NCBI RefSeq assembly: GCF_009914755.1
Contig: NC_060934.1
DNA length: 64,000 nt
Source of the DNA: the human T2T-CHM13v2.0 reference genome, Homo sapiens
Strand: one strand, 5' to 3'
In this document: piece after piece, positions 26,881 through 27,858 of the stretch
Numbering within the stretch: the stretch's first letter is position 1
Layout of the letters: every line of letters starts with the position of its first letter
Program-made: the position numbers and the translations under genes
Notes under the pieces: model-generated
The model's database searches: none
Seen by the model: the letters and a program-made list of their open reading frames with translations, nothing else
Told to the model about the DNA's origin: nothing

Positions 26881-27004
26881 AGGAAACCAATTTTAATTAC
26901 GTATGTAATTAACAGTAGTCCCACAAAATATGAGACTCACTGAAGAGTGAGATATTGAAGCTTATACAGCATCTGAAGCTATGGAAGGAATAGAAGCTTG
27001 GGGC

Positions 27005-27307
27005 TTTTTTTTTTTTTTTTTTTTTTTTTGAGACAGAGTCTCGCTCTGTCGCCCAGGCTGGAGTGCAGTGGCAAGATCTCGGCTCATGAACTCTGCCTCC
27101 CGGGTTCATGCCATTCTCCTGCCTCAGCCTCCCGAGTAGCTGGGACTACGGGCACCCACCACCACGCCCAGCTAAGTTTTTGTATTTTTAGTAGAGACAG
27201 GGTTTCACCGTGTTAGCCAGGATGGTCTCGATCTCCTGACCTCGTGATCCGCCCGCCTCGGCCTCTCAAAGTGCTGGGATTACAGGCATGAGCCACCGTG
27301 CCTGGCC
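27005..27307 (-). mobile_element. AluY, 3' partner of a chimeric insertion
   Basis: gccattctcc, ccgtgttagccaggatggtctcgatc, gacctcgtgatcc. Confidence 0.93.
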
Positions 27308-27424
27308 AAAATAGTAATCTCTATTTTTTTATTTTTTTTAATCAATGTTGACCAGGTTGGCCTCGAATGTGTAGCCTCGCCTCCCCGAGTGCCAGGGCAA
27401 CCGGCCTGAGCCACCGAGACTCCC
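27308..27424 (-). ncRNA. ASR (Alu/snaR-related) retrocopy with A-rich tract and Pol III terminator-like TTTT
   Basis: Minus strand GGGAGTCTCGGTGGCTCAGGCCGGTTGCCCTGGCACTCGGGGAGGCGAGGCTACACATTCGAGGCCAACCTGGTCAACATTG. Shares GTGGCTCAGGCCGGTTGC and TTCGAGGCCA.CCTGGTC with snaR as I recall it. Confidence 0.75.
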
Positions 27425-27858
27425 AGAAGCTTGGGGCTTTTAAGGGTTGGTGTCTACACAAGTTATACAAAATGGAGTGAGAGGAGGAAATACATGATGA
27501 ATAAAGATAGTCTTGTTATGCAGACTAAAGTCTCTCAGGTAATAACAGTTGTCTGCAGCAGCCCTTTCCCTGATACAGGTAACTTTTACTAAAGTAGATC
27601 TCCTTTATAGATGGGTAAATTTCTTTTACAAAAGGGCAGCTTTTCAAAATTACTCCTGTGTCTGCAGATTCTCAGAATAACTAGCTCAAAACATGGCAAA
27701 AAAAGATATTTTGGGGATGGTATATTCTGGTCTCTTACCAGAATATTTTGGGTGGGGTATCTTGAGCCAACAATGGATAATCAGTATAATGAAAATTTTT
27801 AAAAAACAAATTGACCAAGTAAGAGCAAAATATATTCATTGAGAGTAATTTGCATTTC

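What the first reader, a model, noticed from the sequence alone, without database searches (positions are those of the whole stretch)
26992..27441. Chimeric ASR/snaR-like RNA-AluY retrogene inserted as one unit
Seen (minus strand, 5' to 3'): L1-endonuclease-type site CCTT/AAAA; 17-bp TSD AAAAGCCCCAAGCTTCT (27441-27425); 85-nt ASR-like body (27424-27340); A-rich tract; unique TAGAGATTACTA; TTTT (27311-27308); then immediately GGCCAGGCACGG..., a full-length AluY with poly(A); and the second TSD copy (27008-26992). The AluY has no TSD of its own, so both parts integrated in one TPRT event. Known: ASR is the FLAM-C-derived precursor family of primate snaR Pol III RNAs, and U6/L1 chimeras join a U-tailed Pol III RNA 5' of a polyadenylated retroelement RNA by template switching or RtcB ligation. 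Inference: this is a snaR-lineage analogue that preserves the true 3' end of an ASR source transcript, and the 12-nt tag could identify the master locus. The alternative is read-through from a source locus where ASR already sat next to an AluY.
Basis: partly seen in the sequence, partly recalled or inferred. Interest (0 to 1): 0.8.

Follow-up and report, generated by a model that had tools for sequence, protein, structure and literature searches.

The report
Chimeric snaR-ancestor/Alu retrocopy, source found
Two different small RNAs, an ancestor-of-snaR (CAS) transcript made from a copy on chromosome 8 and a complete Alu, were copied into DNA as one joined piece in an intron of JMJD1C, a rare kind of retrocopy that records exactly where the first RNA ended.

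Summary
On the minus strand, a perfect 17-bp target-site duplication at a TT/AAAA site brackets an 85-nt snaR-related body, an A-rich tract, TAGAGATTACTA-TTTT, a full-length Alu from its first base, and poly(A).

The body is a CAS element (catarrhine ancestor of snaR), not ASR. It is 85 nt, 94% identical to the published CAS HsX, and lacks the extra 3' segment of ASR.

The 'unique tag' is the 3' target-site duplication plus flank of another CAS retrocopy at chr8:17.76 Mb, copied up to its T5 terminator. That locus has no Alu downstream. The tag-Alu junction occurs nowhere else in the T2T genome, so read-through is effectively excluded.

The best reading is one L1-mediated event. Reverse transcription of an Alu RNA reached its 5' end and continued on the U-tailed 3' end of a Pol III CAS transcript.

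Among 40 CAS/ASR loci examined, 5 more show a T-run abutting an Alu or L1 inside a single duplication.

This is a new member of the known class of chimeric retrogenes. The insertion is about 20 Myr old and shows no sign of function. Primate empty sites could not be tested.

The parts
27425..27441 (-). 5' copy of the 17-bp target-site duplication AAAAGCCCCAAGCTTCT. It is preceded by CCTT, giving a TT/AAAA L1-endonuclease-type site.
   Evidence: family D2, 100% identity.
27340..27424 (-). 85-nt CAS body (catarrhine ancestor of snaR), complete from nt 1 (GGGAGTC...) to ...CAACATTGATT. The B-box position reads ATTCGAGGC, whereas the chr8 copy has GTTCGAGGC.
   Evidence: Rfam snaR-A 34.3 bits over the full model, lacking both snaR expansions. 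94% identical to L003, which is the HsX CAS. 81/85 identical to chr8 L002. Lacks the ASR 3' segment. 17-nt gap relative to an Alu left arm.
27324..27339 (-). A-rich tract A8TA7. The last seven A already belong to the copied chr8 3' target-site duplication.
   Evidence: Alignment A1. The chr8 anatomy is shown.
27308..27323 (-). TAGAGATTACTA + TTTT. This is a copy of the chr8 CAS locus's 3' TSD and flank up to the first four T of its T5 run, that is, the 3' trailer and U-tail of a Pol III transcript.
   Evidence: 29/30 identical over AAAAAATAAAAAAATAGAGATT[A/C]CTATTTT. Homology stops exactly after TTTT.
27030..27307 (-). Full-length Alu of the Y type, 278 nt, starting at Alu nt 1 directly after TTTT.
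   Evidence: Two Metazoa_SRP-model hits cover the two arms. It was compared with a consensus of the 14 closest of 91 local Alu copies: 16 substitutions and one 3-nt deletion. The subfamily was not checked against a reference library.
27009..27029 (-). Poly(A) tail of the Alu (21 A), the presumed priming site of target-primed reverse transcription.
26992..27008 (-). 3' copy of the 17-bp target-site duplication.

Best explanation
This is a bipartite chimeric retrocopy made in a single L1-driven integration into a TT/AAAA site in a JMJD1C intron.

The proposed steps are as follows. L1 ORF2p primed on the poly(A) of an Alu (Y-type) RNA and copied it to its very 5' end. It then continued on the 3' end of a second RNA without adding a base. 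That second RNA was a Pol III transcript of the CAS retrocopy at chr8:17.76 Mb. The transcript ran from CAS nt 1 through the A-rich tail and 18 nt of chr8 flank, and stopped with four U in the T5 terminator.

**Shown:** the anatomy, the single TSD, the chr8 origin of the trailer, the absence of an Alu at chr8, and the uniqueness of the junction.

**Inferred:** that the join was made by end-to-end template jumping rather than by prior RNA ligation, that Pol III made the CAS RNA, and an age of roughly 20 Myr.

The copy shows no sign of present function. Its B-box has lost the first G, and it has no progeny.
For: 1. A perfect 17-bp TSD at CCTT/AAAA brackets the whole composite. Nothing brackets the Alu alone.
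2. In a genome-wide search, the only other locus matching through the tag is G000:C8:17762366-17762495 (query 20-138 of 146).
3. At chr8 the CAS sits between its own TSD copies, AAAAAAAATAGAGATTCCT and AAAAAAATAGAGATTCCT, followed by ATTTTTAAACTTAAGC. The tag is therefore chr8 target-site DNA, which fixes the direction as chr8 to chr10.
4. In alignment A1, homology begins exactly at CAS nt 1 and ends exactly after TTTT. The 5' flanks are unrelated, as expected for an RNA copy bounded by a transcription start and a terminator.
5. There is no Alu within 200 nt downstream at chr8. The 76-nt junction probe has only itself as a full-length match; of about 300 first-look candidates, 40 were scored.
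6. The exact 18-mer tag occurs at 5 genome sites, but only chr8 and chr10 have a CAS beside it.
7. chr8 and chr10 share the uncommon T at body position 6. It is seen in 4 of the 40 aligned loci (L001, L002, L010, L047).
8. Parrott 2011, Fig. S4 legend, names Hs17397126Ch8 as the only CAS locus with ESTs suggesting Pol III transcription. L002 is the only chr8 hit among the 40 listed, so it is probably that locus. This is an inference from coordinates.
9. The Alu begins at its first base, which in a primary Pol III transcript carries a 5'-triphosphate (established knowledge). Moldovan 2019 found that a 5'-triphosphate acceptor strongly reduces RtcB ligation. This favours a template jump.
10. The same architecture recurs. 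In 5 further loci of the 40 examined, a run of 2-3 T abuts an Alu or L1 inside one duplication.
Against: - No primate orthologue could be examined, so a CAS-only intermediate allele is not excluded by data.
- chr8 and chr10 are not identical. They differ by 4 of 85 in the body, 1 of 30 in the tag region, and an 11-nt indel in the A-rich tail. The chr8 locus has changed since, or a lost near-identical locus was the true source.
- Equating L002 with the EST-supported locus rests on chromosome and approximate coordinate only.
- The genome search scores only the best candidates (40 of 52; 40 of about 300).
- Template jump versus RNA ligation cannot be decided from sequence.
- ORF2p's preference for poly(A) templates, noted by Moldovan 2019, argues against easy switching onto a U-tailed RNA.
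- Doucet 2015 states that small-RNA/Alu chimeras are very rare and were not reproduced experimentally.
Confidence: 0.82

Rival explanations
1. The same single-event chimera, but the two RNAs were ligated before reverse transcription, by RtcB or another RNA ligase as shown for U6/L1. The joined RNA was then retrotransposed through the Alu poly(A).
For: Moldovan 2019 showed that U6/L1 chimeric RNAs form by ligation independently of retrotransposition, and that ORF2p prefers poly(A) templates. The junction has no extra bases, which fits a ligation as well as a jump.
Against: RtcB needs a 2',3'-cyclic phosphate donor and a 5'-OH acceptor, and a 5'-triphosphate acceptor ligated poorly. The Alu here starts at nt 1, the native triphosphate end. 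No USB1-type 3' processing is known for CAS or snaR RNA (this last point is from recall).
Confidence: 0.1
2. Two separate insertions. A chr8-derived CAS RNA, keeping its 3' trailer, retrotransposed alone to chr10. Later an Alu inserted exactly between TTTT and the 3' TSD without making a duplication of its own.
For: TTTT/AAAA at the trailer/TSD boundary would be an ideal endonuclease site. Standalone snaR-like retrocopies with A(n)T(1-3)A(n) tails exist (L022, L026, L050). L027 (A9T9A5-Alu) fits such a two-step history.
Against: An Alu nicked at TTTT/AAAA would leave a 5' TSD copy beginning AAAA between TTTT and the Alu, and there is none. The scenario needs a zero-length TSD at exactly the right base. 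It also needs a CAS copy primed past a U-tail with no A-run left behind.
Confidence: 0.05
3. Read-through or co-transcription from a source locus where the CAS already lay next to an Alu (5' transduction of the CAS by the Alu, or terminator read-through).
For: Four T is a weak Pol III terminator (from recall). CAS elements often have Alus just downstream: 11 of the 40 loci.
Against: The source locus identified by the tag has no Alu downstream. An Alu inserted there would be separated from TTTT by its own TSD. The junction is unique in T2T-CHM13.
Confidence: 0.03

Closest known systems
U6/L1 (and rare U6/Alu, U6atac/Alu) chimeric retrogenes (Buzdin 2002/2003, as cited in PMC4476161 and PMC2104539; Doucet 2015; Moldovan 2019)
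   Same: A complete U-tailed Pol III small RNA is joined head-to-tail, in the same orientation, 5' of a polyadenylated retroelement copy. There is one TSD and an L1 endonuclease site (features listed).
   Different: The 5' partner is a CAS (snaR-lineage, Alu-derived) RNA, which none of the papers read lists. The 3' partner is a full-length Alu rather than a 5'-truncated L1. The 5' partner carries an 18-nt genomic trailer that pinpoints its source gene, which U6 chimeras cannot do.
CAS retrotransposons (Parrott et al. 2011, PMC3045588)
   Same: An 85-nt body 94% identical to HsX, an A-rich tract, TSD-flanked, and intronic.
   Different: It is not a simple CAS retrocopy. It retains a post-tail trailer and U-run, and its TSD also encloses an Alu. 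The word stem 'chimer' does not occur in the main text of that paper.
Alu/LINE-1 and small-RNA/LINE-1 chimeric insertions catalogued by Law and Burns 2026 (PMC13174262)
   Same: Contemporaneous co-insertion of two RNAs within one TSD. Alu RNAs take part in such events (452 Alu/L1 chimeras).
   Different: That catalogue only considers LINE-1 as the 3' partner. Its main text contains no 'snaR', 'FLAM' or 'BC200'. Here Alu is the primed 3' partner.
Origin of dimeric Alu by fusion of free left and right monomers, and other composite SINEs formed by template switching (mentioned in PMC2104539 and PMC3045588)
   Same: A monomeric 7SL-derived unit is joined through an A-rich linker to another Alu unit, giving a three-arm Alu-like composite.
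   Different: The composite left no progeny, since the junction is unique. It is a dead-end example of the process rather than a new SINE family.

Membership tests
CAS (catarrhine ancestor of snaR) | About 85 nt excluding the oligo(A/T) tract (Parrott 2011) | tested here: met
   Body 27424-27340 is 85 nt. It is 94% identical without indels to L003, which is identical to the HsX sequence printed in Fig. S5.
CAS (catarrhine ancestor of snaR) | Carries delta1, a 17-19-nt internal deletion relative to FLAM C or the Alu left arm | tested here: met
   A 17-column gap against the left arm of the adjacent Alu (alignment A2). FLAM C itself was not available as a reference.
CAS (catarrhine ancestor of snaR) | Carries delta2, the loss of the ~13-nt 3' segment present in ASR | tested here: met
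   In the 40-locus alignment, L024, L029, L047, L048 and L055 carry 13-16 extra nt after GGGCAACAT. L001 goes from CAACATTGATT straight into the A-tract.
ASR (Alu/snaR-related) | An additional ~13 bp at the 3' end compared with CAS | tested here: not met
snaR genes | Two 8-nt internal expansions (epsilon1, epsilon2), and a score at or above Rfam's gathering threshold | tested here: not met
   The Rfam snaR-A alignment shows two 7-nt gaps at the expansion sites. The score is 34.3 against a gathering score of 98.
Chimeric retrogenes (features i-v in Gogvadze 2007) | The 5' part is a full-length copy of a cellular RNA | tested here: met
   Homology to the chr8 source runs from CAS nt 1 to the U-run of the terminator.
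Chimeric retrogenes (features i-v in Gogvadze 2007) | The 3' part is a 5'-truncated copy, usually of a LINE, with random truncation points | tested here: not met
   The 3' part is an Alu that starts at its nt 1. This is a difference in detail, not in kind. Doucet 2015 accepts a TSD-flanked U6atac/Alu as a chimera.
Chimeric retrogenes (features i-v in Gogvadze 2007) | The parts are directly joined in the same orientation | tested here: met
   The junction reads TTTT|GGCCAGG with no intervening base, and both parts are on the minus strand.
Chimeric retrogenes (features i-v in Gogvadze 2007) | The whole element is flanked by short direct repeats | tested here: met
   A 17/17 TSD.
AluY subfamily | Diagnostic positions of the Y consensus | tested here: inconclusive
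   It groups with, and is 5.7-6.4% diverged from, a consensus of its closest local copies. No reference subfamily library was available, so the Y versus Sc assignment rests on recall.
Active Pol III gene | Intact B box GWTCRANNC and a terminator | tested here: not met
   The chr10 copy reads ATTCGAGGC (first G lost), whereas the chr8 source reads GTTCGAGGC followed downstream by T5 (the consensus is printed). Expression data were not available.

The most novel reading that the evidence does not exclude
CAS/ASR RNAs, the ancestors of snaR, are a previously unlisted and recurrent class of 5' partner in L1-mediated chimeric retrocopies.

At 6 of the 40 human family loci examined, the native A(n)U(2-4) 3' end is fused directly to an Alu (5 loci) or a 5'-truncated L1 (1 locus) inside a single duplication. 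That fraction is of the order reported for U6.

This would mean two things. Alu-primed reverse transcription can hand over to U-tailed Pol III RNAs far more often than the U6/Alu record suggests. And the retained trailers can be used to map which CAS copies were transcribed in the ancestral germline. The chr8 copy, which also has EST support today, is the first such case.
Probability: 0.45. Interest if true: 0.62.

Novelty: new member of a known kind. Interest (0 to 1): 0.5.

Why it matters
Chimeric retrocopies are natural records of how the L1 reverse transcriptase switches or accepts templates.

- **Clean junction.** The exact 3' end of one Pol III transcript (four U of a T5 terminator) is joined to the exact 5' end of another (Alu nt 1). 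This argues for end-to-end jumping from an Alu template, a reaction regarded as very rare and not reproduced experimentally (Doucet 2015).
- **Source activity.** The retained trailer shows that a secondary CAS retrocopy on chr8 was a transcribed source in the germline roughly 20 Myr ago. It is the same locus that appears to have Pol III-type ESTs in humans.
- **Route to composite SINEs.** The case illustrates how composite SINEs, such as dimeric Alu, can arise.

For the host gene, it is most likely a neutral intronic insertion.

Tried and rejected
- **Pfam on the L011 fragment.** A Pfam scan of the L1-like reading frame next to the L011 CAS found 0 families. Its L1 identity was shown instead by a match to solved ORF2p chains, residues 1205-1275, E 9e-43.
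- **Control for the other TSDs.** Each locus's upstream 20-mer was compared against the upstream 20-mers of the 39 other loci. The test was spoiled by poly(A) and Alu-containing flanks. Only L023 and L011 came out clean (0 of 39 controls as long), plus L001 (1 of 39, a poly(A) flank). The weaker TSDs (L049 9/10, L017 8 nt, L016 degenerate, L021 10/11) rest on their flush position only.
- **Second traceable trailer.** A search with L017's CAS + TACTTAA found no source; only the locus itself covers 1-118.
- **RNA fold.** The fold of the CAS + trailer is not unusual (z -1.61; 11 of 200 shuffles fold as well) and says nothing about the mechanism.
- **Rfam microRNA hits.** The mir-1268, mir-1972 and similar hits lie inside the Alu, are all below gathering score, and are Alu-derived look-alikes.
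- **Papers and files not available.** Buzdin 2003 (PMC169886) is not held, so its list of chimera types is cited only through Doucet 2015 and Gogvadze 2007. The supplementary dataset of Parrott 2011 (a .doc with locus lists and TSDs, Data S2-S4) cannot be read here. I could therefore not check whether the chr10 locus or its TSD is already listed there. 'Hs10' and 'Ch10' do not occur in the readable supplementary figure file.
- **Not in print, as far as searched.** Searches for snaR+ASR+FLAM+Alu and snaR+chimeric+retrotransposition+template switching gave no paper on CAS or snaR chimeras.
- **Rejected: gene conversion or segmental duplication from chr8.** Homology stops at the transcript boundaries.

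Full report
**What is there.** The description below reads the minus strand. The sequence runs CAACCCTT | AAAAGCCCCAAGCTTCT (27441-27425) | an 85-nt body GGGAGTCTCGG...CAACATTGATT (27424-27340) | A8TA7 (27339-27324) | TAGAGATTACTA (27323-27312) | TTTT (27311-27308) | an Alu beginning GGCCAGGCACGG at its first base (27307-27030, 278 nt) | 21 A (27029-27009) | AAAAGCCCCAAGCTTCT (27008-26992) | ATTCC. The two 17-mers are identical. They are the only long exact direct repeat in 26800-27640. The pre-insertion site is therefore ...CCTT/AAAAGCCCCAAGCTTCT..., a TT/AAAA endonuclease-type site. Nothing resembling a second duplication brackets the Alu alone.

**What the 5' part is.** Rfam's snaR-A model aligns end to end with 27327-27425. 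The score is 34.3 bits, E 1.6e-5, against a gathering score of 98. There are two 7-nt gaps where snaR genes have their internal expansions.

Passages of Parrott et al. 2011 (PMC3045588) and of the 2011 commentary (PMC3337139) define the lineage as FLAM C, then ASR, then CAS, then snaR:
- ASR arose by an internal deletion of 17-19 nt.
- CAS arose by a further ~13-nt 3' deletion, giving a body of ~85 nt.
- snaR arose by two 8-nt expansions.

The window body fits CAS on each count:
- It is 85 nt.
- It shows the 17-nt gap against an Alu left arm.
- It lacks the 13-16-nt segment that ASR-type loci L024, L029, L047, L048 and L055 carry.
- It is 94% identical, without indels, to L003. L003 is letter for letter the CAS 'HsX' printed in that paper's Fig. 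S5.

It is therefore a CAS element, not an ASR.

**Where the 'unique tag' comes from.** The window's genome (T2T human) could be searched. With the body plus tail as query, 40 matches were scored from 52 candidates. All are CAS, ASR or snaR-like loci. Only one besides the window matches through the tag: G000:C8:17762366-17762495.

At that locus a CAS is bracketed by its own target-site duplication, AAAAAAAATAGAGATTCCT upstream and AAAAAAATAGAGATTCCT downstream. The sequence then continues ATTTTTAAACTTAAGCAATT... The tag is therefore chr8 target-site DNA plus flank up to the first T-run.

In the pairwise alignment (A1), similarity begins exactly at CAS nt 1 and ends exactly after the fourth T:
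- 81/85 identical in the body.
- An 11-nt length difference in the A-rich tail.
- 29/30 identical in AAAAAATAAAAAAATAGAGATT[A/C]CTATTTT.
- Unrelated flanks on both sides.

Those limits are the limits of a Pol III transcript: an internal promoter, and termination in a T5 run. They are not the limits of a DNA duplication.

The exact 18-mer tag occurs at 5 places in the genome, and 46 with up to one mismatch against 63 for the reversed control, so it is not rare by itself. Only chr8 and chr10 have a CAS next to it.

Parrott's Fig. S4 legend says that only one CAS locus, Hs17397126Ch8, has ESTs with minimal flanking extension that suggest Pol III transcription. L002 is the only chr8 hit and lies 0.37 Mb from that older-assembly coordinate. 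It is probably the same locus, but this is an inference.

**One event or two, and read-through or chimera.** Read-through from the source is excluded for practical purposes, for three reasons:
- chr8 has no Alu after the terminator.
- An Alu inserted there would be separated from the T-run by its own duplication.
- A 76-nt probe across the tail-tag-Alu junction has no other full-length match in the genome (40 of about 300 candidates scored, the rest being ordinary Alu 5' ends).

Two independent insertions would require two unlikely things. First, a CAS retrocopy that kept a U-tailed trailer. Second, an Alu inserting exactly at TTTT/AAAA with a zero-length duplication. In normal target-primed reverse transcription the 5' duplication copy, beginning AAAA, would lie between TTTT and the Alu, and it does not.

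The simplest account is a single event. Reverse transcription primed on the Alu poly(A), reached Alu nt 1, and continued on the 3' end of the CAS RNA.

Ligation of the two RNAs beforehand, as shown for U6/L1 by Moldovan 2019 (PMC6789731, passages), is possible. It is disfavoured because that reaction needs a 2',3'-cyclic phosphate donor and a 5'-OH acceptor. It worked poorly with a 5'-triphosphate acceptor, and a triphosphate is what a full-length Alu transcript carries (established knowledge).

**Age and state.** The Alu was compared with a majority consensus of its 14 closest copies, taken from 91 near-full-length Alus in the window and the fetched loci. It shows 9 CpG transitions, 7 other substitutions and one 3-nt deletion. 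Non-CpG divergence is 3.0%. With the commonly used rate of about 0.15% per Myr (from recall, not from a call) this is roughly 20 Myr, with wide error. The 4.7% pairwise difference between the chr8 and chr10 bodies is compatible with that.

The chr10 copy has lost the first G of the B-box, reading ATTCGAGGC against GTTCGAGGC at chr8 (consensus GWTCRANNC as printed). It has no progeny. It lies in sense orientation in a JMJD1C intron, about 8 kb from the nearest annotated exon. I see no sign of function.

**The pattern recurs in the family.** I looked at all 40 loci. Eleven have an Alu or L1 in the same orientation just downstream. Two of these (L006, L024) have a duplication around the CAS alone, so they are independent insertions. 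In the other nine, the best duplication encloses both parts.

Six of those nine, counting the window, have a T-run that directly abuts the partner's first base:

| Locus | Place | Junction | Partner | Duplication |
|---|---|---|---|---|
| L001 | the window | T4 | Alu, Y type | 17/17 |
| L049 | chr19:56.09 Mb | A11 TTT | Alu | AAGCAGG[A/G]CA, 9/10 |
| L023 | chr1:27.99 Mb | A14 TT | internally deleted Alu | AAAAAGAAGAG, 11/11; 0 of 39 control flanks as long |
| L016 | chr11:0.51 Mb | A16 TT | 5'-truncated Alu | degenerate |
| L030 | chr18:31.36 Mb | ...AATT | Alu | host Alu's GGATCGACT/GGATCAATT present twice |
| L011 | chr1:102.47 Mb | A22 C TTT | 5'-truncated L1 encoding ORF2p residues 1205-1275 (E 9e-43) | GAAAAATCTA, 10/10, with an unexplained 6-nt spacer before the CAS |

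L049 is the CAS inside HERV-44200, for which the paper reported no duplication.

The remaining three composites are less clear:
- L027 (A9 T9 A5, then Alu) fits a two-step history.
- L017 and L021 have no T-run at the junction.

Standalone copies have A-runs that lead straight into their duplication. Some snaR-like copies have A(n)T(1-3)A(n) tails instead. A T-run at the junction is what a Pol III 3' end predicts, and it is not what an Alu insertion into an A-tail predicts.

These secondary cases were not tested with outgroup genomes, and several duplications are short. I treat them as support, not proof.

**Comparison with what is known.** The element meets four of the five features of chimeric retrogenes as listed in Gogvadze 2007 (PMC2104539, passage): a full-length 5' RNA, direct joining, the same orientation, and flanking repeats. 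It departs in having a full-length Alu rather than a 5'-truncated LINE as the 3' part.

[quoted passage not shown] That paper found one convincing U6atac/Alu.

Law and Burns 2026 (PMC13174262; abstract, section 12 and passages) catalogue small-RNA/L1 and 452 Alu/L1 chimeras. They only consider L1 as the 3' partner, and their main text does not mention snaR, FLAM or BC200.

Two literature searches found no paper on CAS or snaR chimeras. The stem 'chimer' is absent from the main text of Parrott 2011. That paper's unreadable .doc dataset might list this locus.

I therefore file the element as a new member of a known kind.

**Verdict.** What remains open is the primate presence/absence pattern, the jump-versus-ligation question, and how solid the family-wide recurrence is.

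Noticed in passing
L049 (G000:C19:56095141-56095225, minus) and about 340 nt downstream: The CAS embedded in HERV-44200 is followed by A11 TTT and a full Alu. AAGCAGGACA just before the CAS recurs as AAGCAGGGCA just after the Alu poly(A). 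Parrott 2011 (Fig. S5 legend) reported no target-site duplication for this CAS, possibly because the duplication encloses CAS + Alu.
   Followed up: partly
L011 (G000:C1:102474113-102474213, minus) and 470 nt downstream: A CAS + A22 C TTT joined to a 5'-truncated L1 3' end (ORF2p residues 1205-1275, E 9e-43), with GAAAAATCTA on both sides. This is a candidate CAS/L1 chimera of the U6/L1 type. A 6-nt spacer AGTATC between the 5' repeat and the CAS is unexplained. It resembles ATATC upstream of the orangutan parent-locus CAS in Fig. S2.
   Followed up: partly
L023 (C1:27987276), L016 (C11:508834), L030 (C18:31360416), L027 (C7:45721383), L017 (C1:40138167), L021 (C10:37767020): Six more CAS/ASR loci have an Alu in the same orientation inside what looks like a single duplication. 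Three have TT abutting the Alu (L023, L016, L030). L027 reads A9T9A5-Alu. L017 carries a 7-nt tag TACTTAA whose source was not found.
   Followed up: partly
L013 (C12:100305918), L052 (C6:33044123), L054 (C3:65751053): These CAS copies have clear duplications but no A-tail at all. L054 is also 3'-truncated at nt 56. They resemble the 'tailless' and 3'-truncated small-RNA retropseudogenes described for snRNAs.
   Followed up: no
L022 (C21:23095701), L026 (C7:26182947), L050 (C12:20992023): These snaR-like retrocopies are probably snaR-21, Hs7i and snaR-12. Their tails read A10 T A12, A11 TT A6 and A12 TTT A5..., as if the U-tailed transcript had been adenylated after transcription and then primed on the added A-run.
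   Followed up: no
window 27123-27174 and 27257-27373, minus: Rfam matches to mir-1268, mir-1972, mir-619 and others lie inside the Alu and at the CAS-Alu junction. All are below gathering score and are Alu-derived look-alikes, not microRNA genes.
   Followed up: yes
window 26700-26872, minus: Another Alu in the same orientation lies about 120 nt downstream of the composite. It is within the masked stretch 26298-26870 and is unrelated to the insertion event.
   Followed up: no
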